Positions 14,941 to 35,091 of a stretch of 36,539 nucleotides of DNA are shown here, piece after piece. Position numbers and translations under genes: made by a program. Each line of letters starts with the position of its first letter. Position 1 is the stretch's first letter. The notes under the pieces were generated by a model that was not told where the DNA came from, searched no databases, and saw nothing but the letters and a program-made list of their open reading frames with translations. Origin of the DNA: Actinomycetes bacterium (GTDB lineage: Bacteria; Actinomycetota; Actinomycetes; JACCUZ01); assembly GCA_050742955.1 (NCBI GenBank), contig JBOGDY010000001.1:1-36539 (forward strand), read 5' to 3'.

Positions 14941-15395
14941 GTGACACCCCGTCCTTTGACGCCAGTCGGCGTGTGGATGAGCGCCGGAGCCCTCCTATGT
15001 GAGTTCAGGATCGGGCCCCGATGCTGAGGGGTCCATTGTGCATCGGTCCTAGTGCCCGCCGCAGTTTTTCGTGCCTGCGCGAGATCGCGTGGTGGGCGGT
15101 CGCGGCGGGAGTCGAGGCGCCCCTTGCCTCGGTTCACTCACCGCAGGCGCCGCCGCGCTGCCCCCGACTAGGCGACGGCTAGGCGGCTGCCGTTGACAGC
15201 CTGCTCGGCCAACTTCGGCCGCCGCAGCTTCGGCCGTCAGTTCCACGTGCCGTCGACAACTAATCCAGACCCGCTCTTCGACGGAATGCCGTCAACTGGC
15301 CCAAGGTGGGCATCGCAACAGGGCCGAAAGCCCTCCGGTCTGCCTCGGCGGTGGACCCATTCAAGGCGCTGCGCCTAGAGGCAGGGCGTCCCCAG

Positions 15396-15472: not shown

Positions 15473-18202
15473 TCAGGAGCCGCTGGTCGATACCCGCGGC
15501 TTCGCCCGCAGCCATGCGCGGTAGGCCTCGTCGACGGCCCAGACGACAAGTGGGAAAGGCGCGATGAGCGCTAGGACATCCCAGGGCAGCGGTGCCGTCT
15601 GCATGATCGTGTTGGCCGCAGGCAGGTAGACGAGAGCGGCGGTGAAGACGAGCTCGAAGGCGATGCCCCAGAGCAACATGGGGTTGGAGAGCAGCCCGAC
15701 GGAGCGCAGGGAGGCATGCGCCGTCCGAGCCGCAACTGCGGTACCCACCTGGCAGGCGACGATCCCCGCGAAGGTCGCCGTGGTGGCCTGCAGGTAGGCG
15801 TGGTGCAGCGGGGATCCGCTTTCCGTCGGGTCCCCTGGTCGCCACCCGGCCCGGTACAGCGTGTAGAAGAACGCCCCCATGACGAGCACGGCCGAGATCC
15901 CGCCCAGCAGCAGCCATGCCCGAATGAGCATCTCGCGTGTGACCACCGACTCGCGTGGCGGCCGAGGCGGCTTCTGCATGATGCCCGGCTCCGCGGGCTC
16001 ACGTCCGAGCGCCAGGGCCGGCATGGTCTCGGTGCCGAGGTCTATGGCCAGGATCTGCGCGACCGTGAGCGGCAACGGCACGGCGCCACCCGAGAGCGCG
16101 AAGGCCAGGAAGGGCACGACCTCGGGCACGGCGTGGGCGAAGATGTAGAGGATGAACTTGCGCACGTTGTCGTAGACCCGGCGCCCCTCCTCGACAGCGT
16201 CCACGATGGTGGCGAAGTTGTCGTCGGTGAGCACCACGGTCGCCGCCTCGCGCGCGACGTCCGTGCCCGCTCGGCCCATGGCCACGCCGATGTCGGCCCG
16301 GCGCAGCGCGGGCGCGTCGTTCACTCCGTCGCCGGTCATCGCGACGACCTCGCCGGCGTCCTGAAGCACGTCAGCGATGCGGAGCTTGTCCTCAGGGCTG
16401 CTGCGCGCGCACACCACCTCTTCCCGACCGGTCATGATCGATGTCAGCTGTGCATCGGTCATCCCGGCGGTGTCCGCACCGCTGACCAGCCGAAGCCCGT
16501 CGACGCCGATGCCCACCTGCCGAGCGATCTCCGCCGCGGTGTCGCCGTTGTCGCCGGTGAGGACGTGCACCCGCAGGCCGGCCGAGTGACACCGCGCGAC
16601 GGCCGGGCCAACCTCGGCGTGGGGCGGATCGAGCAGCGCGACCATGCCGAGCAGCCGGAGGTCACACTCGGCGTCGTGCCGGTGCTTCGGCCAGGGAAGG
16701 CTGCCGAGCTCGCGGTCCGCGACTGCCAGGACGCGCAGTCCTCGCCCAGCGAGCTCGTGGACGCGCGCGACGGCGGCCTGCCGCGCCGCATCGTCGAATG
16801 GAGCCGTCCCTCCGCCCTCACACAATCGCCGGGTACAGCGCTCGAGCACGGCTTCCGGTGCCCCTTTGACGTGCAGAGCCGTCCCGTCGGGGCCGGTGTC
16901 CACCGTCGACATGAGCCGGAGCTGCGCGTCGAACGGGTAAAGGCGCCGTCGTGCCTGGTCACGGGCGGCCGGGTCGACCCGCACACCGAGCAGCTCAGCG
17001 GCCTCGAGGACCGCAGTCTCGGTGGGGTCGCCGCCCTCCGCGGTCGATCCGTACGAGGTGGTCGTGCAGGCCACCATTGCCCGGGCGAAGACCCGTTCCG
17101 CGGCCCCCGCGCCCATTGCTCCTGGCTCGACATCCCTGCCGGCAACCCACATGGCCGCCGGTCGCATGCGGTTCTGGGTGATGGTCCCGGTCTTGTCCGA
17201 GCAGATGACGGTCGTCGACCCGAGCGTCTCGACGGCCGAGAGCCGCCGCACGACTGCTCCGCGCCGGGCGAGGGATCGGACGCCCACAGCCAGGGCGAGG
17301 GTGATCGTTGGCAGCAGCCCTTCCGGGACATTGGCGACGAGCAGACCCACGGCGAACAGGAAGGAGTCCTTGACCGTCAGCCCTGCGCTCAGACCGAGAG
17401 GGAAGAAGGCCAGCCCGATCGCGACCGCCACTGCCGCGATGAGCCACGCGATCCGCTTCACCTGGCGTTCCAGCGGGCTCACGTCGCGCGTCACCCGCTG
17501 CGACAGCGAGGCGATGCGGCCGAGCTCCGTGCGGTCACCGGTCGCGTAGACGAGCGCATGTGCGGATCCAGAGGTGCATGTCGTGCCGCTGAACACGAGG
17601 TCGGTCGCCTGCAGGACCGGCACGGCACGCGCCGTCGGGTTGGGGGTCCGAGTCTGCGGTGTGGACTCCCCGGTCAGCGTCGACAGATCCACCTCGATCT
17701 CGCCGGTGAGCAGCCGCCCGTCGGCGGACACCCGTTGGCCCTCGCTCACGACGAGGACGTCACCCGGTACGAGCGTCTGTACGTCGAGCACAACGGCCGT
17801 CCCGTCCCGCAGCGCCGTCGCCTGCTGCGGCAGGTAGCGACGCAGAGCCTCGACTGCTCGTTCCGCCTGACGCTCCTGCGCAAAGGCGAAGGCCGCGTTG
17901 AGGAGAATGACGGCGGCGATGGCCCAGCCCAGCACGGGCGTCCCCGAGACGAAGGCCAGCAGGCTGGCCGCAGCCAGCAACAGCGCGAGCGGGTGGACGA
18001 CCTGGGCCACGAGCTCGCCGAGCCAGGTGCTGCGCGCCTGGCGGGTCAGCTCGTTCCGACCGAAGCGCGCGAGCCGCCGCTCGGCCTCCCGGGTGGTGAG
18101 CCCGGCCCGGCTCGCCCGCAGCTCGTGCAACAGCACGTCGGCTGGTGCGGCGGGGTCGGGCGGTCCTACGTCATCGCGGGGAGGCGGGCCCGGCGTGCCC
18201 AT
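15473..18202 (-). CDS. P2-type cation-transporting P-type ATPase, Ca2+/Mg2+-type and CtpF-like.
   Basis: It carries TGES (LTGESTP), the phosphorylation site [13 protein letters not shown], the TM4 PEGL motif ([11 protein letters not shown]), TGDN (LTGDNGDTA) and the hinge [22 protein letters not shown]. Confidence 0.93.
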
Positions 18203-18230
18203 GATGACTCCTCTCGTGGCTTGCCACGCG

Positions 18231-20932
18231 TCAGCGCAGGCGGCGCAGCTCCGGCAACGGCCCCTCGGGCGTCGGAGCGAGGCGCAGCCGTACGTCGGTG
18301 GCGACCGCGCCCGTGCGGCTGGCCATGACGGGGTTCAGGTCGAGCTCGGCGACCTCCGGCACGTCGTCGGCCAGCCTCGCGACGCGCAGCAGCAGGTCGG
18401 ACAGGGCGTCGACATCGCAGCGGGGTGAGCCGCGGTAGCCGAAGAGCAAGGGACTGCACCGCAGGTCGCGCACCATCGCGGCCGCATCGACATCGGTGAG
18501 GGGCAGGATGCGGAACGCCTGGTCACCCAGGACTTCCGTCCAGACGCCACCCATCCCGAGCACCAGGACGGGACCGAAGGTGGGCTCTTGGACCACGCCG
18601 ACGAGCAGCTCGACCTGACCGGCCAACATCGGCTCGACGAGGACGGAGCCGTCGCCAACCTCAGCGACGCGCTCGAAGGCCGTGCGCACCTCGTCGTCGT
18701 CGCCCAGGTTCAGGGCGACCCCGCCGACGTCGCTCTTGTGGACGACGGCCGGATCGGCCGTCTTCAGGACGACGGGATAGCCGATCGACCTGGCCGCCTC
18801 CACTGCGCCCACGGCGTCCGTGGCGCGCCGAAGGGAGACCATCTCGATTCCGTAGGTGGCGAGAAGCTCGCGCGCCGTTTCGGCCGGCAGCCAGCCGCCC
18901 TCCGGCCGGCCCGCCAGTGCTCGTGCCACGACGCCCCGGGCCTCGGCCGCGCGGATCCCGGCCAGGTCCGGCACCACCCCACGACTGGATCGACGCCAGC
19001 GCCCGTAGCGCACGGCGTGGCCGAGGGCACGCACCGCCGACTCCGGGAACTGGTAGACCGGGACCGGCCGCGCCCCCTTCTCGTCCAGCAACGGCGCCGA
19101 ATCCGGACGACCCAGGACCACGGCGACCGTGGGCAGCACGCTCCTCGCGACGACATCGAGCATGGCGTCGGGATCGTTGGCCCGGGTCGCGGCGACGACG
19201 GCGACCACCGCATCGACCTCGCCGCTGCCGGCCACCTCTTCGAGTGCTGCCGACAGGTCGCGGGCCGTCGCACCTGCGCCGAGATCGATGGGGTTGTCCT
19301 GCCCGCGCGGCCCGGGCAGCCGCTGCCGCAACGCCTCGGACAGGATGGGGACCTCGAGACCCGCCGACTGGGCGGCATCGCTGGCCAGGACGCCCGCCCC
19401 ACCCGCGTTGCCGATCACGGCGATCCTCCCACCATCGGGAACGGGTTGGACGTCCAGGAGCCGGGCGGTGTCAATCAGATCCTCGACGGTGTCCAGGCGC
19501 AGCACACCGGCCTGCGCGAAGAGTGCGTCGACGGCGGTGTCGGGGGAGGCAGCCGCTGCCGTGTGGGAGCGTCCGGCCCGGCGCCCTCCGGCCGACCGAC
19601 CGCCCTGACGACCAGGACAGGCTTGGTCGCGGACACCCGCCTGGCCAGCCGGGCGAACTTACGGGGGTTGCCCAGGGACTCGAGGTAGAGAGCGATCACG
19701 TGCACACGCTGGTCGTGCCACCAGCGCAGCAGGAGGTCGTTGCCGCTTACGTCGGCCTTGTTCCCGAGCGAGACCATGCTGGCGACACCGAGCCGGGCGC
19801 GACTCGCGACATCGACGAGAGCGATGGCGACCGCGCCCGACTGCGCGGCGATGGCCAGGTGGCCGGGCTGTGGGCGGGTAGGCGCGAACCAGGCCTCGAG
19901 CGACACCTCGGGGTCGGTGTTGAGCAACCCGATGCAGTTCGGGCCCACCAGCCGCGTACCGCTGGTCCGAGCCGATCGCACCAGCCGCTCCTGCAGCTGG
20001 AGACCGGCCCCGCCCAGCTCGGCCAGCCCCGAGGACAGGATGACTACGGCCCGGACGCCGGCCCGTCCGCAGTCGTCGATCACGTCCTCGAGCGCCGCCA
20101 CGGGCACGGACACGACGGCCAGATCCACCTGACCGGGGATCTCGCTGACGGTGGGGTAGGCGGTCAGTCCTGCGACCTGGCGGGCCCGCGGGTTGACCGG
20201 GTAGACGCTCCCGGCGAAATGACCGGCCACGATGCTGCTCAGCACCTCGTGACCGACGCTGCCCGGGCGACGGCTGGCGCCCACGACGGCCACCGTGCGC
20301 GGTTCGAGCAATGGGTGCAGGGACGCAAGCTCGGCCCGCTCCTCGCGCGTGTCCATCGCCAGGAGCGTCTCCTCGTCTGCGGTGGTGGCGAGCCGGAACC
20401 GCGAGACGCCGTCGGCGAGGGAGCTCCGGCTGCGTAGCCCCGAGTCGGCAAAGACTGCGGCCATCCGCCGGTTGTCGACCAGCACGTCGCCGACCAGCTC
20501 GCGGACGCCGACCGACCGGGCCGCGGCGGCAAGGTGCTCGAGGAGCAGAGTGCCCACGCCCTCACCCTGGTGCGCGTCCTCCACGAGCAGCGCGACCTCC
20601 GCCTCGTCGTCACCGGTCCGCTCGAAGCCCGCGACTGCGACCACCACGCCGCCGAGGAGTGCGACCAGGGCAGCGTGGTCCCGGTCCGTCGGCCTCACCA
20701 CGCTCTCCACGTAGTCGTCGGCGACATTCCGGTTGAGGGCGAAGAACCTGAAGTAGAGGCTGCGGTCGGTGACGCGGGAGTTCAGGGCCCGGAGCGCATC
20801 GGCGTCGGCTCGGGTGACGGGCCGGATCCGGACGATCTGCCCCTTGGCGGTGAGCGCCTCGCACCCGGTGGGCGGCGTGTCCACGGGCGTCAGCCCGGTG
20901 CCCGGACGCGCGCCGGTCTCGGTCGGGATCAC
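18231..20932 (-). pseudogene. PatA-like GNAT acetyltransferase / NDP-forming acyl-CoA synthetase fusion, interrupted by an apparent 1-nt frameshift near 19600-19612.
   Basis: ORF 19475..21121 encodes GNAT (QGEGVGTLLLEHL), a CoA-binding domain (VAVVGASRRPGSVG) and a ligase-CoA domain. ORF 18231..19505 encodes the ATP-grasp part. The third frame reads continuously GGRSAGGRRAGRSHTAAAAASPDTAVDALFAQAGVLRLDTVEDL, joining the two. The proposed start GTG (20932) overlaps the upstream stop as GTGA. Confidence 0.75.
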
Positions 20933-21699
20933 GGCCGTCGCTCCGTCCGCGAGGCGCGTAGGGCGGGCACGACGACCATGGCGACACCCGTCAACATGCC
21001 AAGGGCGCCGGCGACGAGCAGGCCCGCCGCCACATCGTCGAGGAGGGGGACCGTGGCAGCGGCCCGCACCCGGACGGCGATCCCCGGCACAGCGTCCTGG
21101 TTCATCGTGACGATGGTCCACGACCCGTCACGCGGCCGCCACGTCACGCTCTGCGGGCCCGTGCCGACGGACTGGGCGACCCAGATGTCGGCCGTCTCCG
21201 GCAGCTGCCGGGGAGGCCCTCCCGGGTGGTCCACGCGGATGCGACCGTTGAACGGCAGGTCGGCGAAGGTCGCGTGCCGCACGCCCTCGAGATATCTCGC
21301 GGCGTCGGCGGTGCGAGCGATGCCCAGGAACAGGAGACGCCCGGGGTCGGCTGGGGTGACCTGCACCCTGACCGTGCCCACCAGCCTGTCCACACCAGGT
21401 CCCCAGCCAGCCTGTCGGAGATCCATCGGACCTCCGTCCACTGCAAAGCCGGCGGTGGCGAAGGACTCGGAGCCGAACGACAGGAAGCCGGCCGCGTCCC
21501 GTTGGGTCCGGTCCACGAGCAGCGCAGCAGCGCCGGCCACGAGCAGCACCAGCCCGACGATGCTCGAGATGTTCCCGACGACCACCGACGCCACCCGGCC
21601 CGCCGTCCACCCACGGCGCGACCGGTGCCCCGAACGCCCGGAGCCGGGCGGTGGTACCGCGGCCGCCGGTGGCCCATACGCCGGGGGCGCGGTCGTCAT
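20929..21699 (-). CDS. Membrane protein of unknown function: N-terminal Pro-rich tail, a TM helix, a ~190-aa extracytoplasmic domain and a C-terminal TM helix.
   Basis: ORF 20929..21708. ATG 21699 lies 9 nt after AAGGAG. TM segments are VVVGNISSIVGLVLLVAGAAALLV and AAGLLVAGALGMLTGVAMVVV. Confidence 0.65.
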   Translation of the reverse strand: MTTAPPAYGPPAAAVPPPGSGRSGHRSRRGWTAGRVASVVVGNISSIVGLVLLVAGAAALLVDRTQRDAAGFLSFGSESFATAGFAVDGGPMDLRQAGWGPGVDRLVGTVRVQVTPADPGRLLFLGIARTADAARYLEGVRHATFADLPFNGRIRVDHPGGPPRQLPETADIWVAQSVGTGPQSVTWRPRDGSWTIVTMNQDAVPGIAVRVRAAATVPLLDDVAAGLLVAGALGMLTGVAMVVVPALRASRTERRP

Positions 21700-21748
21700 C
21701 GGCACCATCTCCTTCGTCGAGCTCAGGGGGATCCGGCGGCGCCGGCCG

Positions 21749-22192
21749 TCACGTCCCGCTCGGCTGCTCGGACTCCTCGGGCTGCTCGAGACTCACGTCT
21801 CGCAACGCCCGCAGCAGGTCCGACCCGGTGACGATGCCCACCGGCCGCCTCTCCGCGTCGACGACCGGTAGCGCGTCGTCGCCACGGGCGAGCATGAGCC
21901 GCGCGGCCTCACGGACGTTCAGGGCGGGCGTGACCTCGCACGGGACCTGCGTGTACGACTGGAGCACCTCGGTCACCTGTCTGGTGCGCAGGGTCAGCGC
22001 GGCCGTGAGGCACTCCCCCATGGCGACCCGATCGCTGAGCACGCCGACGAGAGTCCGTGCCCCGTCGACCACGACGAGGTGACGCAGTCCGCTGACCATG
22101 AACTGGTCGACGGCCTGCCACACGGTGTCGGTGTCCCGCACCGTCACGACCGGTGCCGACATCACCTCGGCGACCGATGGTGCATCGACCAT
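21749..22192 (-). CDS. CBS-pair domain protein (Hrp1-like).
   Basis: It has two CBS repeats (VMSAPVVTVRDTDTVWQAVDQFMVSGLRHLVVVD... and ...ARLMLARGDDALPVVDAERRPVGIVTGSDLLRAL). The ATG lies 4 nt after the ADH stop, with GAAGGAG inside the ADH 3' end. Confidence 0.85.
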   Translation of the reverse strand: MVDAPSVAEVMSAPVVTVRDTDTVWQAVDQFMVSGLRHLVVVDGARTLVGVLSDRVAMGECLTAALTLRTRQVTEVLQSYTQVPCEVTPALNVREAARLMLARGDDALPVVDAERRPVGIVTGSDLLRALRDVSLEQPEESEQPSGT

Positions 22193-22195
22193 TGC

Positions 22196-23245
22196 TCACT
22201 CCTTCGTCAGCACGACCTTGAGCGCACCGCTCGCGCCTGCGTCCGAGAAGACCTCGTACGCCGTGAGCATCTGGCCCAGGGAGAACGTGTGCGTCACCAT
22301 CGGCGCCAGGTCGAGCTGCCCGTCGCGGAGCAGGCGCAGCAGCGTCGGCGTAGTCGAGGTGTCGACCAGCCCCGTCGTGATGGTGACGTCCTTGATCCAC
22401 AGGTCCTCCAGGTGCAGCGTGGCCGGCTTCCCGTGGACTCCGACGTTCGCGACCCGCCCTCCCGGCCGCACCAGCCGGGTGCACAGCTCGAAGGTCTCGG
22501 GGAGGCCGACGGCCTCGATGACCACGTCCGCGCCGAGCCCGTCGGTCAGGTCGAGGACAAGCGTCCTGGCCTCGTCCGGGTCGCTCATGTTGCTGACCAG
22601 CACGTCCGCGCCGACGCCCTTGGCGGCGTCCAACCGGCCGGACAGCGGGTCGATCGCCACCACGCGCGACGGCGAGAAGAGCTTGGCGGTCATGATCGCC
22701 GCGAGGCCGATCGGGCCGGCTCCGACCACCGCCACCGTCGCGCCTGGACTGACACCCCCGGCGAGCACCCCGACCTCGTAGCTCGTCGGGAGGATGTCGG
22801 CCAGCAGCACTGCCGACTGGTCGGGCAGGCCGACCGGCAGCCGGTGCAGTGACAGGTCCGCGAAAGGGACCCGCGCGTACTCGGCCTGGACACCGTCGAT
22901 GAGGTGCCCGAGCTGCCACCCGCCGCCCCCCAGGCACTGCCCGTAGCGCGCCTCCCGGCAGAAGCGACAGACGCCGCACGCGCTGATGCAGGAGACCAGG
23001 ACGCGGTCGCCCGGGGTCACCGTCCGCACCGCGGAGCCGACGGCCTCGACCGTCCCGACCGCCTCGTGCCCGAGGATCCGCCCCTCGGCCACCTCCGGCA
23101 CATCGCCCTTGAGGATGTGCAGGTCCGTCCCGCAGATGGTGACGGCGTCGATGCCGACGATCGCGTCCGTGTCGTCCAGCAGACCGGGGTCCGGGACCTC
23201 GTCCCAAGCCTTGCTGCCGTTCCCCTGATAGACCAAGGCACGCAT
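22196..23245 (-). CDS. Zinc-dependent medium-chain alcohol dehydrogenase.
   Basis: ORF 22196..23584. The internal ATG at 23245 is preceded by GGAGGTGG. It has GHEAVGTVEAVG (catalytic Zn), the C-x2-C-x2-C-x7-C structural Zn motif (CISACGVCRFCREARYGQC) and the Rossmann motif VVGAGPIGL. Confidence 0.9.
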   Translation of the reverse strand: MRALVYQGNGSKAWDEVPDPGLLDDTDAIVGIDAVTICGTDLHILKGDVPEVAEGRILGHEAVGTVEAVGSAVRTVTPGDRVLVSCISACGVCRFCREARYGQCLGGGGWQLGHLIDGVQAEYARVPFADLSLHRLPVGLPDQSAVLLADILPTSYEVGVLAGGVSPGATVAVVGAGPIGLAAIMTAKLFSPSRVVAIDPLSGRLDAAKGVGADVLVSNMSDPDEARTLVLDLTDGLGADVVIEAVGLPETFELCTRLVRPGGRVANVGVHGKPATLHLEDLWIKDVTITTGLVDTSTTPTLLRLLRDGQLDLAPMVTHTFSLGQMLTAYEVFSDAGASGALKVVLTKE

Positions 23246-23355
23246 GTCCACCTCCGCGGCGCCGTGACCACGTGTGCGGTCTCCCGCGGCACCCTCGCTT
23301 GCGAACGTAGGTGCCGGGCCGCGAGCCCGGCAGGTGCCGTGGTCTCCCCTTCGAC

Positions 23356-23369
23356 GGGACCTAGGTCCC
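23356..23369. promoter_or_regulatory. DosR/DevR-type box B1 in the divergent ADH-operon / USP-ABC-operon promoter region.
   Basis: Perfect 14-bp palindrome GGGACCTAGGTCCC with a GGGAC-N4-GTCCC core. It lies 111 nt upstream of the ADH ATG and 93 nt upstream of the USP ATG. Confidence 0.7.
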
Positions 23370-23461
23370 CTGGAGGCACTCAGTGAGGCCCTGGCCGTCC
23401 GGGGGCGCCTGGGCTGTGCTGACGAGTGACAGGCAGCCGCGGACCGACCTGTGGAGGAGCA

Positions 23462-24352
23462 ATGGAAGCGATCGACCGGAGGGCGCTCGTCGTGGGCGTC
23501 GACGGATCGCCGGCCGGCAAGGAGGCGCTGCGCTGGGCGCTCGACGCCGCCGCACGCCGTAGGGCCGGTGTCCGTGTCGTGCATGCGCTGGAGCTGTCGC
23601 TCTTCGACGTCCGGCTGGACGCCGCCTACGGACCCGGATGGGAAACCCCGCTACGGACATCGATGCGGCAGATGCTCGACGAGATCGTCGCGGATGCCGC
23701 CCGGTCCCACCCGGACGTAACCGTCGAGACCCGTCTCGAGGCAGCGCCCGCCTCGGTGATCCTTGTGGAGGAGTCCGAGCGCGCGGACACCGTCGTGCTC
23801 GGAAAGCGCGGGACCGGCGGCTTCGCGAACCTGGTCATCGGCTCGACCACGCTGCACGTGGCGACGAACGCCCACTGCCCGGTGGTCGCCGTGCCCACGG
23901 CGCCCGCTGCAGGACCCGCCCGCCGTGGCGTGGTGGTCGGTGTCGACGGCACGCCGGCTGCAGAGCCGGTCATCGAGTACGCGTTCCGGGCCGCCGACGA
24001 GGCCGGCGAGCCCCTCATGGCAGTGCACACCTGGCGCGATCCGGCCCCGATGGGTCCGGGGGTGATGATGCCCCTCGTCTACGACCCGACTCTTGTCACC
24101 TTCGAGGAGCGGCTGCTGCTGTCCGAGATGATGGCCGGCTGGTCGCAGAAGTACCCCGACGTCGAGGTTCAGCAGACGGTCCTGCACGCCCACGCCGTAC
24201 CGTCGCTGGTCGAGGAGGCCCGGGCCGCGCGGCTCCTCGTCGTCGGCTGCCGGCGGCGCGGGGACCTCAAGAGCCTTCTGCTCGGCTCGGTCAGCCACGG
24301 AGTCCTGCACCGGGCCTGCGGACCGGTGGCCGTCGTGCCGCGCACGGGGTGA
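23462..24352 (+). CDS. Tandem universal stress protein (two UspA domains).
   Basis: ORF 23426..24352. ATG 23462 is preceded by GGAGGAG. It has duplicated USP modules (VVGVDGSPAG...VLGKRGTGGFANLVIGSTTLHVATNAHCPVVAV and VVGVDGTPAA...VVGCRRRGDLKSLLLGSVSHGVLHRACGPVAVV). Confidence 0.9.
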   Translation: MEAIDRRALVVGVDGSPAGKEALRWALDAAARRRAGVRVVHALELSLFDVRLDAAYGPGWETPLRTSMRQMLDEIVADAARSHPDVTVETRLEAAPASVILVEESERADTVVLGKRGTGGFANLVIGSTTLHVATNAHCPVVAVPTAPAAGPARRGVVVGVDGTPAAEPVIEYAFRAADEAGEPLMAVHTWRDPAPMGPGVMMPLVYDPTLVTFEERLLLSEMMAGWSQKYPDVEVQQTVLHAHAVPSLVEEARAARLLVVGCRRRGDLKSLLLGSVSHGVLHRACGPVAVVPRTG

Positions 24353-24359
24353 GCGGCTC

Positions 24360-25118
24360 ATGAGCAGCCACACCGAACCTGCGACGCCGAGGCCGCTGCT
24401 GGTGGCCGAGCGGGTGAACAAGGTCTACCGCTCCGGCGACGTGAGCGTCGCGGCCCTGGTCGACCTGGACCTATCGGTGGAGGCCGGCGAGCTGGTAGCC
24501 GTGATGGGTCCCTCCGGCTCGGGCAAGACGACGTTGCTCAACTGCCTGTCCGGCCTCGACGACATCGACGGAGGGCGGGTCACGGTGGCCGGCCGCGACC
24601 TGTTCGCGATGTCGGACGCCGAACGCACCGAGCACCGCGCACGGTCGATGGGTTTCGTCTTCCAGTCGTTCAACCTGATCCCGGTGTTCACGGCGGTCGA
24701 GAACGTCGAGCTGCCGCTCCTGCTGGTGGGTACGCCTGCCCACGAGGCGCGTCGGGCGGCGCTGGAGATGCTGGCGCAGGTCGGGCTCAGCCACCGGGCG
24801 AGCCACCTGCCCAACCAGATGTCAGGCGGAGAGCAGCAGCGCGTGACGATCGCCCGCGCCCTGGTCGCCCGACCGGCGATCGTGTGGGCCGACGAGCCGA
24901 CCGGCAACCTGGACACCGCCATGGCCGCGCAGGTGATGGAGCTGCTCCGGCGGCTCAACCAGGAGCACGGCCAGACCATCGTCCTGGTCACCCACGACCA
25001 GGCGATCGGTCGCGCGGCCGGCCGGCTGGTGCTGATGCGCGACGGTCGGCTGGAGAGCGACCGCCACTCCACCCCGGCCGGCGTCGCGGTCGGTTCGCCC
25101 CGCACCTCGTCGGACTGA
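24360..25118 (+). CDS. ABC transporter ATP-binding protein (MacB/LolD-like clade).
   Basis: It has Walker A GPSGSGKTT, the signature MSGGEQQRV and Walker B IVWADEPTGNLD. It starts 8 nt after the USP stop. Confidence 0.93.
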   Translation: MSSHTEPATPRPLLVAERVNKVYRSGDVSVAALVDLDLSVEAGELVAVMGPSGSGKTTLLNCLSGLDDIDGGRVTVAGRDLFAMSDAERTEHRARSMGFVFQSFNLIPVFTAVENVELPLLLVGTPAHEARRAALEMLAQVGLSHRASHLPNQMSGGEQQRVTIARALVARPAIVWADEPTGNLDTAMAAQVMELLRRLNQEHGQTIVLVTHDQAIGRAAGRLVLMRDGRLESDRHSTPAGVAVGSPRTSSD

Positions 25119-25123
25119 TCAGC

Positions 25124-28060
25124 ATGTACCCGCAGCTCACTCCCCCGCTGCTCGCCGGGCTCGGCATCGCGCTCGGCATCGTCGCCTTCCTGATCCTCCG
25201 CCGGCCGGTGCTGCGGCGCCTCGCGTTGCGGCAGGTCCGCCGACGTCCCACCGAGGCCGTGCTCGTAGTCCTCGGCTCGGTCCTGGGCACGACGCTGATC
25301 GTGGCCAGCCTGGTCGTCGGCGACTCCCTGGACCGCTCGGTGCGCCAGTCGGCCTACGACGTGCTCGGACCCATCGACGAGATCGTCCGGTCGTCGTCGT
25401 CGGACGTCGGCGACCTCGCCGCCATCCGCCTGCACCGCCTGCGCGAGGATCCGGACGTCGACGGGCTGCTCACGGTGCGCGGCGACGCGGCCGCGGCCAC
25501 GCGTGGTCAGGGCGAGAACAGGGTCGCCTCCCCGCGGACTCTGGTCTGGGAGCTGGACTTCGCCGCCGCGCGCGGCTTCGGGGGAGCCGAGCCCTCGGGT
25601 CTGGATGCCGCGGACCCCGGACCCGGGCACGTCGTCGTCAACACCACTCTGGCCGACGAGCTCGGTGCCGGGACCGGGGACCGGATCACGTTCTTCCTCT
25701 ACGGCCGCCTGACGGAGTTCACGGTCTCAGACGTGGTCCCCGCCCAGGGCCTTGCCGGGATGGGGCTCGGCGCGAGCGTCAACCGCAACGCCTTCTTCTC
25801 GCCTGGCACGCTCACGGTCGCCGCACGGCTGGCAGATCGTGAGCCGACGAGCTCGACCCTGGTGTCCAACCGGGGTGGGGTGGAGAGCGGCGAAGCACTC
25901 ACCGAGACGGTCAGCGCCAAGATCGACCGCGCGCTGGGCCCGCTCGCGACCGCGGGTGCCGCGGTGACCGCACCCAAGCAGGAGGTGCTGGACGCGGCGG
26001 AGGAGACCGGCGCAGTGCTGGGGTCGCTGTTCCTCTTCATCGCCAGCTTCGCCATCATCGCCGGCGTCCTCCTGCTGGTGAACATCTTCGTGATGCTCGC
26101 CGAGGAGCGAAAGGGGCAGCTGGGGATGCTGCGAGCCATCGGCATGCGGCGCCGCCGGGTCACCGGAGAGTTCTCCATCGAGGGCGCCGTCTACGGCGCC
26201 GTGGCTTCCCTGCTCGGCGCGGCGCTCGGCGTCGCCGTCGGACGGCTCGTGGTCGTTCTCGCCGTCAACGTCCTCAACGGCTACGAGCGCGGCGACAACC
26301 AGCTGGACATCGTGTTCGACGTCCGCCCGGCCAGCCTGGTCAACGGGATCGCCGCCGGCTTCCTGATCGCCTTCGTGGCCGTCGTGCTCACCAGCGTTCG
26401 CATCGCCCGCATCAACATCATCGCGGCCATCCGCGACCTGGACCCCACGACGCCGCCGCGGTCACGGCGTCGGCTCAGCGTGCTGTCCGCGGCGCTCACC
26501 GCCCTGTTCCTGGCAGCGTCGGTCCCGGCAGTCGCGTCAAGCGCGGGCGCCTCGACGTACCTCTTCCCGGCGCTCGTCGCCGTGTCCGCGATCCCGCTGC
26601 TGAGGCGGGTGGCTCCCGCGAAGCACGTCACCACCGGCGTCTCGGTGGCCGTGCTCGCCTGGGGACTCGGCGCCCACCTCGTCCGCCCACACATGTTCGA
26701 CGACGCGTCTACCGCTACCTACGTCGTCCAGGGGACCATGCTCTCCTTCGCCGCCGTAGTCCTGCTCAGCCAGTACCAGTGGCTGGTGCTGCTGCCGTTG
26801 CGCCCCCTCGTTTCGCGTCCCACCGAGGCCGGACTGGCAACGCGGCTGGCCATCGCCTACCCGACCGCCCGCCGGTTCCGCACCGGTGCGACGCTGGCGA
26901 TGTACTGCATCGTCGTCCTCGTCATCGTGCTGCTTGCCCAGATCTCGGCGGTCATCCGGTCGGGGGTCGACACAGCAGTCAGCGATGCATCCGCCGGATG
27001 GACCCTCCGCGCCGACTTCAACCCGAGCACACCACTGCCCGACATCACCAGCTCCGTCACCCAGGGGCGTTTTGCCGGCTCCATCGAGGACTCCGCCCCA
27101 CTCCTGACGGCCGCCGGGACCGGGGATGACCCGCTGGGGCGCACGACCGCTCCGCTGCCCGTGCTCGCTATCGGGGTGCCGGGCGAGATCGTCGGTCGGC
27201 AGCCTGCTCTCAGCGACCGGCTCGACTCGCTGCCGGACGACGAGACGGCCTGGCGGCTCGTGCTGGGCGACGCGCGCTACGTCCTGGTCGATGCCTTCTA
27301 CGGCTCCACCGGGGGACCCCAGGGCAAACCGATCACCCCCGGCGACCCCGTGACGTTGACCGACCCGCGCACCGGCAAGACCTCCGATCGGGTCATCGCC
27401 GGCGTCATCAAGGACGGCACCGCGTTCTACGGCGTCAGCGCGGGCGAGTTCCGGTTCCCCGTGGTGATGGGCCAGCCGGCCGTCCATCTGACGTTCGGCT
27501 CGGAGGCACGCTTCTCGAGCCTGCTGCTGCGGACTGCCGCCGGGGTCGACCGGGCGGAGCTCGTCCGGCGGATGCAGGGCGCCCTGCTCGCTTACGGCGT
27601 CGTCGTCACGGACATACCGGAGGCAGTGCGGGACATGTACGCCGCCAACACGCAGATGTTCCGGCTGATGCAGGGCTACCTGGCGCTCGGCCTCCTCGTA
27701 GCGATCACCGGTCTCGGAGTCATCATGGTGCGGTCCGTCCGTGAACGGCGCCGAACCATCGGTGTGCTGCGTGCACTGGGCGTCCGTGCCAGGACCGTGC
27801 GCCGCGCCTTCCTCGCGGAGAGCACGTTCATCGCGATCGAGGGTGTCGTCGTGGGTGTGCTGCTGGGTGTGCTCACGACCTGGCTCCTCTACCGGAACAG
27901 CCCTGCGTTCGCGGGCCTGGACGGTCCCTACCCGATCGCCTGGCAGGAGATCTCCGTAACTGTCGGGACCGCCCTGGTGGCGTCCTTCGTGGCCACGCTG
28001 CTCCCGGCACGGCGCGCGGCCCGGATCCGACCGGCGCTCGCCGTCCGCGTGCCGGAGTGA
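25124..28060 (+). CDS. Large FtsX-family ABC transporter permease with duplicated FtsX modules (~978 aa).
   Basis: ORF 24884..28060. ATG 25124 lies 6 nt after the ATPase stop. It repeats a TM-cluster architecture with a large extracytoplasmic domain and has FtsX-like segments (LRAIGMRRRRV, LRALGVRARTVRRAFLAESTFIA). Confidence 0.85.
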   Translation: MYPQLTPPLLAGLGIALGIVAFLILRRPVLRRLALRQVRRRPTEAVLVVLGSVLGTTLIVASLVVGDSLDRSVRQSAYDVLGPIDEIVRSSSSDVGDLAAIRLHRLREDPDVDGLLTVRGDAAAATRGQGENRVASPRTLVWELDFAAARGFGGAEPSGLDAADPGPGHVVVNTTLADELGAGTGDRITFFLYGRLTEFTVSDVVPAQGLAGMGLGASVNRNAFFSPGTLTVAARLADREPTSSTLVSNRGGVESGEALTETVSAKIDRALGPLATAGAAVTAPKQEVLDAAEETGAVLGSLFLFIASFAIIAGVLLLVNIFVMLAEERKGQLGMLRAIGMRRRRVTGEFSIEGAVYGAVASLLGAALGVAVGRLVVVLAVNVLNGYERGDNQLDIVFDVRPASLVNGIAAGFLIAFVAVVLTSVRIARINIIAAIRDLDPTTPPRSRRRLSVLSAALTALFLAASVPAVASSAGASTYLFPALVAVSAIPLLRRVAPAKHVTTGVSVAVLAWGLGAHLVRPHMFDDASTATYVVQGTMLSFAAVVLLSQYQWLVLLPLRPLVSRPTEAGLATRLAIAYPTARRFRTGATLAMYCIVVLVIVLLAQISAVIRSGVDTAVSDASAGWTLRADFNPSTPLPDITSSVTQGRFAGSIEDSAPLLTAAGTGDDPLGRTTAPLPVLAIGVPGEIVGRQPALSDRLDSLPDDETAWRLVLGDARYVLVDAFYGSTGGPQGKPITPGDPVTLTDPRTGKTSDRVIAGVIKDGTAFYGVSAGEFRFPVVMGQPAVHLTFGSEARFSSLLLRTAAGVDRAELVRRMQGALLAYGVVVTDIPEAVRDMYAANTQMFRLMQGYLALGLLVAITGLGVIMVRSVRERRRTIGVLRALGVRARTVRRAFLAESTFIAIEGVVVGVLLGVLTTWLLYRNSPAFAGLDGPYPIAWQEISVTVGTALVASFVATLLPARRAARIRPALAVRVPE

Positions 28061-28115: not shown

Positions 28116-28129
28116 GTGACCTTCGGCCC
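28116..28129. promoter_or_regulatory. DosR/DevR-type box B4 upstream of the CBS-BON-PNPOx gene.
   Basis: GTGACCTTCGGCCC, centred 76 nt upstream of ATG 28198. The 16-mer GTGACCTTCGGCCCTG is repeated exactly, in reverse complement, at 33553-33568. Confidence 0.55.
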
Positions 28130-28197
28130 TGACAGCGCGACGGTTGCGGTCCCTACCGTGGAGGCGTCGAAGGCCCGCTCCTCCACGGAGGTTCGCT

Positions 28198-30333: not shown

Positions 30334-30347
30334 GTGACCTTGGTCCC
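30334..30347. promoter_or_regulatory. DosR/DevR-type box B2, on the USP-proximal side of the USP/GH65 divergent region.
   Basis: GTGACCTTGGTCCC, one mismatch from the perfect palindrome of B1 apart from the central dinucleotide. It is centred 110 nt upstream of the USP ATG (30230). Confidence 0.6.
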
Positions 30348-30370
30348 GCGCGGCCGGTCGTCGGCGCGAT

Positions 30371-30384
30371 AGGACCAAGGTCAC
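30371..30384. promoter_or_regulatory. DosR/DevR-type box B3, on the GH65-proximal side of the same divergent region.
   Basis: AGGACCAAGGTCAC, which matches the reverse complement of B2 at 13 of 14 positions. It is centred 125 nt upstream of the GH65 ATG (30503). Confidence 0.55.
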
Positions 30385-32921: not shown

Positions 32922-33326
32922 TCACAGGTCGTGCTCGGCCAGCTCGGCCAACGTGGCCGTGACCAGCCAAGCAGGGGTCAGGTCCCTGGCCGACATCAGA
33001 CGCAGCTCGAGCGGGATGAGCACGTCGCGCTGCAGCGACCGGAGCCGCTCCTCACCCACGTTCTGACCGACCAGCTCGCGCGCCACGAAGGCGCGGGCAA
33101 CGCGCCAGTCGAGGGCTTCCATCTCCTCCGGCACGGGGTCGGCCGCCAGCTCGGCCACGCGGCTCGCCGAGCCGTGTGCCACCGCGTTGATCCACATCCA
33201 TGGTGCGACCTGGCCGCTTTCACCACGCGACCGGAGCCGCTCGAGGTAGCGACCCCCGAGAAAGGCCTCGACCTCATCGGCCAGCCCCGAGCCGACCTTC
33301 GGTGCGGCCCAGCGAAGGAAGGACAT
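32922..33326 (-). CDS. Hypothetical protein with an ambiguous start.
   Basis: ORF 32922..33437. Candidate starts are ATG 33326, GTG 33338 (9 nt after GGAGGG) and ATG 33437. No motif was recognised. GC3 is moderately high throughout. Confidence 0.45.
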   Translation of the reverse strand: MSFLRWAAPKVGSGLADEVEAFLGGRYLERLRSRGESGQVAPWMWINAVAHGSASRVAELAADPVPEEMEALDWRVARAFVARELVGQNVGEERLRSLQRDVLIPLELRLMSARDLTPAWLVTATLAELAEHDL

Positions 33327-33554
33327 CCAGCTTCGCACCGTCCTGCTCCCTCCTGAGGCGCCCTGTGACTGGCACCAGCACATCGCGCAGGCTGACCCCG
33401 CCACCACGGGCAGATGCCCCGACGCTGATGGGGCCAACGTCCTCCGTGCACGGGACGGACGGCACGGGGCACACAGCGAGAGGCGGGAGGGTCCACCGCC
33501 GCTCAGGCAGCGGGCCGAGACATCGATTCCAGCCCGTCCGCGGTTCGCGAAACA

Positions 33555-33568
33555 GGGCCGAAGGTCAC
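33555..33568. promoter_or_regulatory. DosR/DevR-type box B5 upstream of the hypothetical gene at 32922.
   Basis: GGGCCGAAGGTCAC is the reverse complement of B4 (GTGACCTTCGGCCC). The exact 16-mer is shared with 28116-28131. Confidence 0.5.
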
Positions 33569-33607: not shown

Positions 33608-33982
33608 TCAGCCGAACCACGGCGTGGCACCCTGGATGGCGGCTGTCCGCCGTGACCGGCCAGGGATCTCTCGACTCGTCGCAGTGTGGGACACCAGGGT
33701 GCGACCCTGCGGTTCAACCGTAAGGCTGCCTCCCAGCCGGCCGACCAGGTCCTGAAATCGGGCCGTGACGGCTGCGACCGCTGGTTCGGCGTTCTGGGCC
33801 CCACGGACGTCGACGACGATCGTGCGCGCACCGGCCTCGACGAGCCGGCACAGCTCTATGGACAGGTCCATCGCCGTCGTGTCATCTGCGAGCCCACGAA
33901 GCACGACGGTGGCGTGCGGACCCTGACGTCGGGTGTTGATCAACATGGCCGTCGCCTCATCCCTGAAAGTGCCCCGTTCCAT
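33608..33982 (-). CDS. STAS-domain (anti-sigma-factor-antagonist-like) protein.
   Basis: ORF 33608..34060. Candidate starts are ATG 33982 and ATG 33946. The pattern HATVVLRGLADDTTAMDLSIELCRLVEAGARTIVVDVRGA...LVGRLGGSLTV resembles SpoIIAA/RsbV-type STAS proteins. This is a weaker call than the others. Confidence 0.5.
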   Translation of the reverse strand: MERGTFRDEATAMLINTRRQGPHATVVLRGLADDTTAMDLSIELCRLVEAGARTIVVDVRGAQNAEPAVAAVTARFQDLVGRLGGSLTVEPQGRTLVSHTATSREIPGRSRRTAAIQGATPWFG

Positions 33983-34063: not shown

Positions 34064-34077
34064 GGGACGGATGGCCC
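34064..34077. promoter_or_regulatory. DosR/DevR-type box B6 between the divergent STAS and hsp20 genes.
   Basis: GGGACGGATGGCCC, centred 72 nt upstream of the hsp20 ATG (34142) and 88 nt upstream of STAS ATG 33982. Confidence 0.45.
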
Positions 34078-34141
34078 TACCCCGCGCTAGCCGGTGGCGA
34101 TGCCATGGAGGCGTGGGTTCCTACGTCATGAGGAGGATGAC

Positions 34142-34579: not shown

Positions 34580-34593
34580 AGCCCTACGGACAC

Positions 34594-34622: not shown

Positions 34623-34827
34623 GCCCGGGCGCACGATCGAGGAGGTGCCAGCCATGGGTGAGAAGGAGCAACACGAGGCGAGCGCCGAAGCACGCCGCCA
34701 TCTGACGTCCCGGCCTACCGAGTCGGGCAAGCACGAGGACCTGGTCCAGCGGCGACTCGGTGTGGCCTTCTATCGCGAGGTTCACGGTCGGGACCAACAG
34801 CCCAGCCAAGCGGACCCAGGAGGAACC

Positions 34828-35022
34828 ATGCACGCAGTCCCGGGCGAGCGCATCATCGTGAGGCGCAGCCACCTCGGCGAACCTGCCAGCGACGGCGAAA
34901 TCATCGAGGTACGGGGGCCCGATGGGAGTCCCCCGTTCCTGGTCCGGTGGTCCGACACCGGGAACGAGGCACTCGTCTTCCCCGGGTCGGACGCGGAGAT
35001 CCACCACTGCGGCGACCGCTGA
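34828..35022 (+). CDS. DUF1918 domain protein.
   Basis: ORF 34645..35022. ATG 34828 is preceded by AGGAGGA. The sequence GERIIVRRSHLGEPASDGEIIEVRGPDGSPPFLVRWSDTGNEALVFPGSDA matches the DUF1918 pattern. The in-frame alternative ATG 34654 also has a GGAGG SD, but the extension has lower GC3. Confidence 0.75.
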   Translation: MHAVPGERIIVRRSHLGEPASDGEIIEVRGPDGSPPFLVRWSDTGNEALVFPGSDAEIHHCGDR

Positions 35023-35077
35023 GCGGCAACCAGCGGTGCGCGCGTGGCGACCATCCGGGCCGCTCGGCCGTAGAGTT

Positions 35078-35091
35078 GGGATCTTCGGCCC
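35078..35091. promoter_or_regulatory. DosR/DevR-type box B7 upstream of the Acg-family nitroreductase gene.
   Basis: GGGATCTTCGGCCC shares its CTTCGGCCC half with B4 and B5. It is centred 45.5 nt upstream of ATG 35130. Confidence 0.5.

What the first reader, a model, noticed from the sequence alone, without database searches (positions are those of the whole stretch)
23356..23369. Perfect 14-bp palindrome GGGACCTAGGTCCC in a divergent promoter region
This is the only perfect copy of the box. It sits midway between the minus-strand ADH operon (ATG 23245) and the plus-strand USP-ABC operon (ATG 23462). Its GGGAC-N4-GTCCC core matches the core of the published M. tuberculosis DosR consensus. A single central site could co-activate both divergent operons, about 12 kb of genes in total.
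Basis: partly seen in the sequence, partly recalled or inferred. Interest (0 to 1): 0.8.

Follow-up and report, generated by a model that had tools for sequence, protein, structure and literature searches.

The report
DosR/OsdR-type operator in divergent promoter
The palindrome is very probably the main binding site for a hypoxia/dormancy response regulator of the DevR (DosR)/OsdR type, placed between two stress operons in an uncultured soil actinomycete; this kind of switch is already well described in Mycobacterium tuberculosis and Streptomyces.

Summary
GGGACCTAGGTCCC lies at 23356-23369, between a minus-strand Zn-ADH (ATG 23245) and a plus-strand tandem-USP gene (ATG 23462). It is the only perfect box in the window.

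The sequence alone is not significant. Perfect 14-bp palindromes are no commoner than in shuffles, and the GGGAC-N4-GTCCC core appears in about 20% of shuffled windows. The support comes from context:
- Related boxes are strongly concentrated in the promoter regions of a DosR-regulon-like gene island (USPs, CBS proteins, PNPox, HSP20, Acg-family nitroreductase, GH65, P-type ATPase).
- 72% of ADH orthologue upstream regions across actinomycetes carry such a box, against 4% of control windows.
- In seven syntenic USP<>ADH loci the box is the best-conserved intergenic block, at a fixed position.

The "single central site" idea needs correcting. Degenerate secondary boxes sit 21-23 bp away on each side, and -10-like hexamers sit about 53 bp away on each side. 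This matches the M. tuberculosis rule of a primary box plus cooperative secondary boxes at about -42.5 and -64.

No DevR/OsdR gene lies in the window, and binding is untested. Verdict: a new member of a known kind, of modest interest.

The parts
23356..23369 (.). Primary (P) Dev/OsdR-type box, a perfect 14-bp palindrome GGGACCTAGGTCCC. The 18-bp box is 23354-23371, ACGGGACCTAGGTCCCCT.
   Evidence: the only 14/14 match. It is the best-conserved block in the alignment of syntenic loci. Its position is conserved at -110 to -118 from the ADH ATG.
23333..23346 (-). Candidate secondary box S on the ADH side. On the ADH sense strand it reads GAGACCACGGCACC (11/14). Its centre is 23 bp from the P centre.
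   Evidence: A box scoring 11-13/14 lies at offset 21-23 in all eight syntenic sequences. It forms the conserved block 'GACC..C.G.CaCTGC' in alignment A1.
23378..23391 (+). Candidate secondary box S' on the USP side, ACTCAGTGAGGCCC (10/14; only the distal half-site GGCCC is good). Its centre is 22 bp from the P centre. It is weak in this window.
   Evidence: Relatives carry GGGCGCAAnGGGGCC (10-12/14) at offset 21-23. The window's copy has diverged.
23304..23309 (-). Candidate -10 hexamer TACGTT of the ADH promoter. It implies a TSS near 23297, with S centred at about -42.5 and P at about -65.5.
   Evidence: A TAnnnT hexamer lies 51.5-53.5 nt from the P centre in 7 of 8 syntenic sequences. The TSS is inferred, not measured.
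23415..23420 (+). Candidate -10-like hexamer TGTGCT of the USP promoter. It implies a TSS near 23427, with S' at about -42.5 and P at about -64.5.
   Evidence: TGTGCT, TGTCCT or TGGGGT lies 52.5-53.5 nt from the P centre in 7 of 8 syntenic sequences. It lacks the usual A at position 2, so this assignment is weaker.
15473..23245 (-). ADH-led gene string: Zn-ADH (22196-23245), CBS-pair protein (21749-22192), hypothetical 256 aa (20929-21699), GNAT + CoA-binding/ligase (19475-20932), ATP-grasp_5 (18231-19505) and a P-type cation ATPase (15473-18202). Gaps are at most 49 bp or the genes overlap.
   Evidence: Pfam, gene calls on near-identical contigs and NCBIfam. Operon status is inferred from spacing only.
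23462..28060 (+). USP-led gene string: tandem USP (23462-24352), ABC ATPase (24360-25118) and an FtsX/MacB-type permease (25124-28060).
   Evidence: Pfam and gene calls. The gaps are 7 and 5 bp.
28116..28129 (+). Box GTGACCTTCGGCCC (13/14) upstream of the CBS-PNPox gene (ATG 28198). TACCGT follows 24 nt after the box.
30334..30384 (.). Boxes GTGACCTTGGTCCC (30334, 13/14) and AGGACCAAGGTCAC (30371, 12/14) between the divergent USP2 gene (start 30230, minus strand) and the GH65 gene (ATG 30503).
33430..33568 (.). Boxes GGGGCCAACGTCCT (33430, 12/14), GGGACGGACGGCAC (33452, 13/14) and GGGCCGAAGGTCAC (33555, 13/14; the top OsdR-matrix hit at 13.05 bits), upstream of the hypothetical gene 32922-33338 (minus strand).
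34064..34077 (.). Box GGGACGGATGGCCC (13/14) between the hypothetical gene 33608-33946 (minus strand) and the HSP20 gene (34142-34579, plus strand). TGCCAT follows 23 nt after the box.
34790..35091 (+). Boxes GGGACCAACAGCCC (34790), GGGCCGCTCGGCCG (35057) and GGGATCTTCGGCCC (35078), all 13/14. The last two are 21 bp apart, upstream of the Acg-family nitroreductase gene (35130-36113).

Best explanation
The palindrome is the high-affinity primary operator (Dev box) of a NarL/LuxR-family two-component response regulator orthologous to M. tuberculosis DevR (DosR) and S. coelicolor OsdR. That regulator is encoded elsewhere in this genome.

Proposed mechanism:
1. The phosphorylated regulator binds the palindrome as a dimer, one GGGAC half-site per HTH.
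2. This nucleates cooperative binding of further dimers to degenerate secondary boxes about two helical turns away on each side: S at 23333-23346 towards ADH, and S' at 23378-23391 towards USP.
3. Each secondary box overlaps the -35 region of one divergent promoter, at about -42.5, and activates it.

One signal, presumably hypoxia or redox as for DevS/DosT/OsdK, would then switch on both gene strings together with the other box-bearing promoters of the island: the ADH / CBS / ADP-forming acetyl-CoA-synthetase-like / P-type ATPase string and the USP / ABC-exporter string.

Shown here: the sequence, the enrichment, the positional and cross-species conservation, and the geometry.
Inferred: the identity of the binding protein, activation rather than repression, the transcription start sites, the operon extents and the inducing signal.
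For: 1. Both halves carry G3 G4 G5 A6 C7 and W9, the positions shown by mutagenesis and logo to be critical for DevR binding (PMC3177182). OsdR binds mycobacterial Dev boxes in EMSA (PMC5069765).
2. An independent S. coelicolor OsdR matrix, built from Table 1 of PMC5069765, hits intergenic DNA preferentially: at threshold 6, 11 hits per 4.6 kb intergenic against 15 per 31.9 kb coding, OR 5.1, p = 1.6e-4. Every promoter region between 23 and 35 kb has at least one hit.
3. A degenerate box pattern at 13/14 or better gives 9 intergenic and 7 coding matches (OR 8.9, p = 4e-5). The six promoter regions hold 9 matches against 1.2 expected, reached in 0 of 500 simulations.
4. The gene content mirrors the DosR/OsdR regulons: three USP-domain genes and CBS-pair, PNPox, HSP20, GH65 and P-type ATPase genes, plus an Acg/Rv3131-family nitroreductase that passes NCBIfam's cut-off (267 bits against 199).
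5. 56 of 78 ADH orthologue loci, from Streptomyces, Micromonospora, Nocardioides and various MAGs, have a box of 13/14 or better centred at -50 to -140. Only 4.3% of control windows do.
6. In S. coelicolor, OsdR sites are predicted upstream of the Zn-dehydrogenase SCO0179 and of the USP-ADH operon SCO0200-0199. The SCO0200 site is bound in vitro, and its promoter is poorly or not active in the osdR mutant.
7. DevR orthologues (52-62% identical to DevR, whose sequence was checked against PDB 3C3W) lie within 4 kb of the ADH orthologue in six genomes.
8. In seven syntenic USP<>ADH loci the box is the best-conserved intergenic block. It is flanked at 21-23 bp by box-like sequences and at 51.5-53.5 nt by T[AG]NNNT hexamers on both sides. 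That places S and S' at about -42.5 and P at about -65, as at M. tuberculosis tgs1-Rv3131 (-42.5/-63.5).
9. Two other boxes in the window (28116 and 34064) are followed after 23-24 nt by TACCGT and TGCCAT, the same geometry.
Against: - No DevR/OsdR gene lies in the window, and none could be sought in the rest of this genome.
- The palindrome alone is within chance expectation.
- It scores only 6.2 bits with the Streptomyces OsdR matrix.
- The USP-side secondary box is poor in this window (10/14), and the USP-side hexamer TGTGCT lacks the canonical A at position 2.
- One syntenic locus (L008) lacks both hexamers.
- The sigma-70 consensus scan found no promoter, as expected for activator-dependent, high-GC promoters but still uninformative.
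- The related loci are not phylogenetically independent, so the conservation statistics are inflated.
- There are no binding or transcript data.
Confidence: 0.8

Rival explanations
1. The site works: one isolated central DevR-type site activates both promoters on its own, and the flanking 'secondary boxes' are not functional.
For: The USP-side S' box is weak in the window (10/14), and the ADH-side S box scores only 11/14. Scores of 11/14 or better are common in this GC-rich DNA.
Against: In M. tuberculosis no regulon promoter has a single Dev box, and a minimum of two tandem, phased boxes is needed. A site centred about 65 bp from each inferred TSS is too far for direct class II contact. The S block is conserved at a fixed 21-23 bp offset in all syntenic loci.
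Confidence: 0.1
2. The box is recognised by a different GerE/LuxR-type HTH regulator, for example one of the two large ATPase-TPR-LuxR (LAL) regulators encoded in the window (5042-7711 and 7853-10540) or another NarL-family paralogue, rather than by a DevR/OsdR orthologue.
For: Two LAL regulators with GerE HTH domains are encoded 13-18 kb away. The second shares 39% identity with the DevR HTH over 66 residues. No DevR gene is in the window.
Against: Their recognition helices read NTVKTH, not the EKTVKNY kept by DevR and by the DevR orthologues next to ADH genes. Lys182 is retained, but the positions equivalent to Lys179 and Asn183 are changed; these are base-contacting residues according to my own knowledge of Wisedchaisri et al. 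2005, which was not re-read here. The box family and its target genes track DevR/OsdR regulons across genera that lack these LAL genes nearby.
Confidence: 0.07
3. It is a chance palindrome, or an RNA/DNA hairpin, with no regulatory protein involved.
For: Perfect 14-bp palindromes occur at the chance rate (5 against 6.6), and the core occurs in about 20% of shuffles. It could form a 5-bp stem with a 4-nt loop.
Against: It is the only intergenic palindrome of the five. It is conserved in position and half-site across syntenic loci whose flanks have diverged. Other family members are not self-complementary (for example GTGACCTTCGGCCC), so a hairpin cannot explain the family. The hairpin energy is not unusual (z = -1.4 and -0.3). 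There is no Rfam match and no conserved RNA structure downstream.
Confidence: 0.03

Closest known systems
M. tuberculosis DevR (DosR) Dev boxes, especially the divergent tgs1-Rv3131, narK2-Rv1738 and hspX-acg promoters (Chauhan et al. 2011, PMC3177182)
   Same: - A palindromic GGGAC half-site, with G3 G4 G5 C7 in both halves and A/T at the centre.
- A primary conserved box plus degenerate secondary boxes in tandem about 21 bp apart.
- A proximal box at about -42.5.
- Shared boxes that serve divergent promoters.
- The same kinds of target gene: USP, CBS (Rv2626c-like), HSP20 (hspX-like), Acg-family nitroreductase, a P-type ATPase (ctpF-like) and a GH65-domain protein (otsB1-like). The Rv gene equivalences come from my own knowledge; the domain calls come.
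   Different: - Position 8 is C rather than T, and the TT/AA flanks of the 20-bp consensus are absent.
- The site is a perfect palindrome, whereas a perfect Dev box does not occur in the M. tuberculosis genome.
- The inferred arrangement is a symmetric S'-P-S array with the primary site distal (about -65) to both promoters. At tgs1 the P box is proximal.
- A Zn-ADH / ADP-forming acetyl-CoA-synthetase-like string is the target.
- The host is an uncultured environmental actinomycete.
S. coelicolor OsdR (SCO0204) binding sites (Urem et al. 2016, PMC5069765)
   Same: - The same regulator family, and a 16-nt palindromic element.
- A clustered island of USP, nitroreductase, PNPox and Zn-dehydrogenase genes with boxes at about -50 to -150 from the start codons.
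- A USP-ADH unit (SCO0200-0199) and a Zn-dehydrogenase (SCO0179) among the predicted targets, with the SCO0200 site bound in vitro.
- ADH orthologues in many Streptomyces genomes carry GGGCCGACCGGCCC at about -80, often with a second box about 21 bp upstream.
   Different: The Streptomyces consensus half-site is GGGCCG (AGGGCCGATCGGCCCT). The window uses GGGACC, which is closer to the mycobacterial form, so the palindrome scores only 6.2 bits with the OsdR matrix. In S. coelicolor, SCO0200 and SCO0199 are co-directional, not divergent.

Membership tests
DevR(DosR)/OsdR operator (Dev box) | An inverted repeat with G3 G4 G5 and C7 conserved in both halves of an 18-bp box, and A/T at positions 9/10 | tested here: met
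   The 18-bp box ACGGGACCTAGGTCCCCT has G3 G4 G5 A6 C7 and T9/A10 in both halves. The criteria come from PMC3177182.
DevR(DosR)/OsdR operator (Dev box) | Located in promoter regions rather than spread at random, and present in multiple copies across a regulon | tested here: met
   Boxes of 13/14 or better: 9 intergenic against 7 coding, OR 8.9, p = 4e-5, with 0 of 500 simulations reaching the observed count. The independent OsdR matrix gives OR 5-11. Only the 36.5-kb window could be scanned, not the genome.
DevR(DosR)/OsdR operator (Dev box) | Target genes of the dormancy/hypoxia regulon type | tested here: met
   USP x3, CBS x2, PNPox, HSP20, GH65 and a P-type ATPase by Pfam. An Acg/Rv3131-family oxidoreductase scores above the NCBIfam cut-off.
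DevR(DosR)/OsdR operator (Dev box) | At least two tandem boxes about 21 bp apart in helical phase, with the proximal box overlapping -35 (about -42.5) | tested here: inconclusive
   Candidate S and S' boxes lie at 21-23 bp and are conserved in syntenic loci. Hexamers place them at about -42.5. However, S' scores only 10/14 in the window, and the TSSs are inferred.
DevR(DosR)/OsdR operator (Dev box) | Conserved in orthologous promoters of other species | tested here: met
   56 of 78 ADH orthologue upstream regions carry a box, against 4.3% of control windows. The box is the best-conserved block in alignment A1, and all 7 syntenic loci have it at -110 to -118.
DevR(DosR)/OsdR operator (Dev box) | A cognate DevR/OsdR-type response regulator (REC + GerE HTH with the EKTVKNY recognition helix) encoded in the same genome | not testable with these tools
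   None is in the window or on the near-identical contigs, and the rest of the MAG could not be read. Orthologues sit within 4 kb of the ADH orthologue in six other genomes.
DevR(DosR)/OsdR operator (Dev box) | Bound by the phosphorylated regulator, with regulator-dependent induction | not testable with these tools
   This needs EMSA or footprinting and reporter or transcript assays.

The most novel reading that the evidence does not exclude
The locus may be a conserved, symmetric three-box (S'-P-S) bidirectional switch. A single perfect 'super-consensus' Dev box, distal to both promoters, would nucleate cooperative spreading in both directions. It would couple a fermentative module (Zn-ADH plus an ADP-forming acetyl-CoA-synthetase-like pair and a P-type ATPase) to a USP/MacB-type exporter module. 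This would define a core hypoxia-fermentation unit of the DevR/OsdR regulon that is widespread in uncultured soil actinomycetes and absent from the M. tuberculosis model.
Probability: 0.3. Interest if true: 0.45.

Novelty: new member of a known kind. Interest (0 to 1): 0.25.

Why it matters
If confirmed, the DevR/OsdR dormancy switch would extend to an uncultured actinomycete lineage; the best ADH match among reference genomes is only 76% identical.

It would also show that a Zn-ADH gene is a core, positionally conserved target of this regulator across Streptomyces, Micromonospora, Nocardioides and several MAG lineages.

Finally, it offers a clean natural example of a perfect primary Dev box flanked by secondary boxes, useful for studying bidirectional cooperative activation.

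It does not change how the system is understood. It is mainly of value for regulon annotation and for predicting hypoxia responses in soil actinomycetes.

Tried and rejected
- **Mismatch scans are uninformative.** GGGACCTAGGTCCC with up to 3 mismatches, and GGGACN4GTCCC with up to 2, find no more matches than shuffles do. Position-weighted and degenerate patterns were needed.
- **The palindrome's rarity gives no argument.** Palindromes occur at the chance rate.
- **The sigma-70 and terminator scan of 23200-23500** found nothing.
- **RNA explanations were rejected.** There is no Rfam family in the window, and the palindrome hairpin is not unusually stable. RNAalifold found no conserved structure between the S box and the ADH start.
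- **The metagenome scan with the USP protein** found no relatives. The scan with the ADH added two syntenic loci, L086 and L087, but nothing above 75% identity.
- **No DevR/OsdR gene was found in the window** or on the same-species contigs. Only the GerE domain of a LAL regulator gave a weak hit.
- **The LAL regulators were considered as the binding proteins** and judged unlikely from their recognition helices.
- **Crp/FNR and Rex operators were considered from memory** (TGTGA-N6-TCACA and TTGTGAA-N6-TTCACAA). The sequence does not resemble them, and no scan was run.

Full report
**Observation**

The 14-bp perfect palindrome GGGACCTAGGTCCC is at 23356-23369. It is the only 0-mismatch copy in the window.

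GC3-based gene calling, Pfam and the gene calls on five near-identical public contigs agree on its setting. It sits in a 216-bp intergenic region between a Zn-dependent alcohol dehydrogenase (22196-23245, minus strand; ATG 23245 preceded by GGAGGTG) and a tandem universal-stress-protein gene (23462-24352, plus strand; ATG preceded by GGAGGAG). The box centre is 117.5 bp from the ADH start and 99.5 bp from the USP start.

The ADH heads a tightly packed string on the minus strand: ADH, CBS-pair protein, a 256-aa hypothetical, a GNAT + CoA-binding/ligase protein, an ATP-grasp_5 protein and a P-type cation ATPase (down to 15473). The USP heads USP, ABC ATPase and FtsX/MacB permease (up to 28060). 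The same palindrome is present in all five same-species contigs from other samples.

**Is it more than chance?**

Not by itself. The window (70% G+C) has 5 perfect 14-bp palindromes against 6.6 +/- 2.5 in dinucleotide shuffles. GGGACNNNNGTCCC turns up in 19.6% of shuffled windows. Simple mismatch scans are no better than shuffles. The palindrome is, however, the only one of the five that lies outside a gene. The case rests on three further lines of evidence.

**Line 1: a box family concentrated in promoters of a dormancy-type island**

I built a matrix from the S. coelicolor OsdR sites in Table 1 of Urem et al. 2016 (PMC5069765), so it is independent of this window. Hits at 6 bits or more number 11 in 4.6 kb of intergenic DNA and 15 in 31.9 kb of coding DNA (OR 5.1, p = 1.6e-4). 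At 9 bits or more the OR is 11.5. Every promoter-bearing intergenic region from 23 to 35 kb has at least one hit, whereas the left 15 kb has almost none.

A degenerate Dev/OsdR pattern, GGG[AC]C[CGT]NN[ACG]G[GT]CCC, gives the same picture:
- At 13/14 or better there are nine intergenic and seven coding matches (OR 8.9, p = 4e-5).
- The six promoter regions (1,639 bp) hold nine matches against 1.2 expected, reached in 0 of 500 simulations.
- The nine sites are 23356, 28116, 30334, 33452, 33555, 34064, 34790, 35057 and 35078.

Their symmetrised half-site is GGGACC, so the palindrome is the perfect symmetric form of the local consensus.

The genes behind these promoters are two further USP genes' worth of stress functions: a CBS-PNPox protein, a second tandem USP, a GH65 protein, two small hypotheticals, an HSP20 and a nitroreductase. 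The nitroreductase passes NCBIfam's cut-off for the Acg/Rv3131 family (267 against 199 bits). This is the gene repertoire of the DevR and OsdR regulons as described in PMC5069765 and PMC3177182.

**Line 2: the ADH gene is a conserved target**

A scan of one genome per species returned 80 ADH orthologue loci at 67-76% identity. They come from Streptomyces, Micromonospora, Nocardioides, Kitasatospora, Knoellia, Acidimicrobiia and many MAGs.
- 56 of 78 usable loci have a box of 13/14 or better centred between -50 and -140. Only 4.3% of 7,127 equal-sized control windows do. Positions peak at about -80 and about -110.
- Streptomyces mostly has GGGCCGACCGGCCC at about -80, often with a second box about 21 bp upstream.
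- Micromonospora and several MAGs have GGGAC...GTCCC cores.
- In six genomes a full-length DevR orthologue lies within 4 kb of the ADH. These are 52-62% identical to DevR, and my recalled DevR sequence is identical to PDB 3C3W.

These loci are phylogenetically related, so the counts overstate independence. They do span several orders.

**Line 3: phylogenetic footprint and geometry**

Seven loci share the divergent USP<>ADH arrangement: L006, L007, L008, L011, L012, plus L086 and L087 from metagenomes. In the alignment the box is the best-conserved intergenic block. It lies 110-118 bp from the ADH ATG in every locus; the window has 117.

| Feature | Offset from the P centre | Found in | Window copy |
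|---|---|---|---|
| Secondary box S (ADH side) | 21-23 bp | all sequences, 11-13/14 | GAGACCACGGCACC, 23333-23346 |
| Secondary box S' (USP side) | 21-23 bp | relatives, GGGCGCAAnGGGGCC, 10-12/14 | diverged, 10/14, 23378-23391 |
| TAnnnT hexamer (ADH side) | 51.5-53.5 nt | 7 of 8 sequences | TACGTT, 23309-23304 |
| TGTGCT-like hexamer (USP side) | 52.5-53.5 nt | 7 of 8 sequences | TGTGCT, 23415-23420 |

If the hexamers are -10 elements ending at -7, the TSSs are near 23297 (minus strand) and 23427 (plus strand). S and S' are then centred at -42.5, and the palindrome at -65.5 and -64.5.

Two strong boxes elsewhere in the window show the same box-to-hexamer spacing. Box 28116 is followed after 24 nt by TACCGT, and box 34064 after 23 nt by TGCCAT.

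**Comparison with the known system**

Chauhan et al. 2011 (PMC3177182) report for M. tuberculosis:
- DevR intimately contacts a 14-bp core of an 18-bp box.
- G3, G4, G5 and C7 in both halves are critical, and position 9 is A or T.
- No regulon promoter has a single box. Two to four boxes lie in tandem, a conserved primary site recruits DevR cooperatively to degenerate secondary sites, and helical phasing matters.
- At the divergent tgs1-Rv3131 promoters the boxes are centred at -42.5 and -63.5.

The window's 18-mer ACGGGACCTAGGTCCCCT meets all the critical positions. It differs from the published consensus TTSGGGACTWWAGTCCCSAA (located in PMC2275270 and PMC2703886) at position 8 (C for T) and in the outer flanks.

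Urem et al. showed that OsdR binds mycobacterial Dev boxes. They also showed that OsdR binds the site upstream of the USP gene SCO0200, which heads the USP-ADH operon SCO0200-0199, and that this promoter is poorly or not active in an osdR mutant.

The 'single central site' mechanism should be replaced by a primary site that nucleates a three-box S'-P-S array serving two divergent promoters.

**Rivals**

- *The two LAL-type LuxR regulators in the window* carry GerE HTH domains. Their recognition helices read NTVKTH, whereas DevR and the ADH-linked orthologues read EKTVKNY. K182 is required for DevR binding (title of reference 24 in PMC3177182). The roles of K179 and N183 rest on my own recollection of the DosR-DNA crystal structure paper.
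- *A hairpin role* is unlikely. The fold is not unusually stable, other family members are not self-complementary, there is no Rfam match and no conserved RNA structure follows.
- *Pure chance* is excluded by the conservation.

**What remains unshown**

- The regulator gene was not found. It is not in the window, and the rest of the MAG is unreadable with these tools.
- Binding, the direction of regulation, the transcription start sites, the operon extents and the inducing signal are all inferred.
- The source is an uncultured actinomycete (GCA_975255145.1). Its best ADH match in reference genomes is 76% identical.

**Verdict**

This is a real and correctly recognised DevR/OsdR-type operator, and a new member of a known kind. 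The mechanistic detail needs one correction: a primary box with flanking secondary boxes rather than a lone site. Interest is modest.

Noticed in passing
window 23312-23332 (minus strand): A perfect 8-9 bp inverted repeat, TGCCGGGC-TCGCG-GCCCGGCA, lies in the spacer between the S box and the candidate ADH -10. As RNA it folds at -17.6 kcal/mol (z = -3.4, 0 of 200 shuffles). Syntenic loci each have some inverted repeat starting at the conserved 'CTGC' but with different sequence and length, and RNAalifold finds no consensus structure. Its function is unknown.
   Followed up: partly
window 5042-7711 and 7853-10540 (plus strand): Two adjacent large LuxR-family regulators (AAA ATPase + MalT-like TPR + GerE HTH; LAL type) sit in the box-poor left half of the window. 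Their recognition helix is NTVKTH.
   Followed up: partly
window 28154-28169 and 34101-34116: The sequences that follow the boxes of the CBS-PNPox and HSP20 promoters are nearly identical: TACCGTGGAGGCGTCG and TGCCATGGAGGCGTGG. This suggests a shared -10/discriminator/start region or a duplicated promoter.
   Followed up: no
window 35057-35132: Two 13/14 boxes lie 21 bp apart, and the proximal one is centred only 45.5 bp from the ATG of the Acg-family nitroreductase, with GAGACT at 35117-35122. If the box sits at about -42.5, the mRNA would be leaderless or nearly so.
   Followed up: no
window 34580-35129: A 550-bp stretch with no confident gene lies between the HSP20 and nitroreductase genes. 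It contains an isolated 13/14 box at 34790 (GGGACCAACAGCCC) and could hide a small ORF or an sRNA promoter.
   Followed up: no
window 18231-20932 (minus strand): A GNAT + CoA-binding/succinyl-CoA-ligase-like protein overlaps an ATP-grasp_5 protein. Together they resemble a split ADP-forming acetyl-CoA synthetase / protein acetyltransferase, co-directional with the ADH. This could be a fermentative ATP-yielding module under the same control.
   Followed up: no
window 15320-15335: AGGGCCGAAAGCCCTC scores 6.9 with the OsdR matrix but lies downstream of the P-type ATPase gene. It looks like a short GC hairpin (GGGC-CGAAA-GCCC) and may be a terminator-like element rather than a box.
   Followed up: no
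window 23378-23386: A 9-bp palindrome CACTCAGTG lies inside the weak USP-side S' region. The relatives have GGGCGCAAnGGGGCC there instead, so this segment has been remodelled in the window's lineage.
   Followed up: partly
L056, L067, L069, L074, L076, L077: DevR/OsdR orthologues (52-62% identical to DevR, with the EKTVKNY helix) lie within 4 kb of the ADH orthologue in Streptomyces, Actinoplanes and Knoellia genomes.
   Followed up: partly
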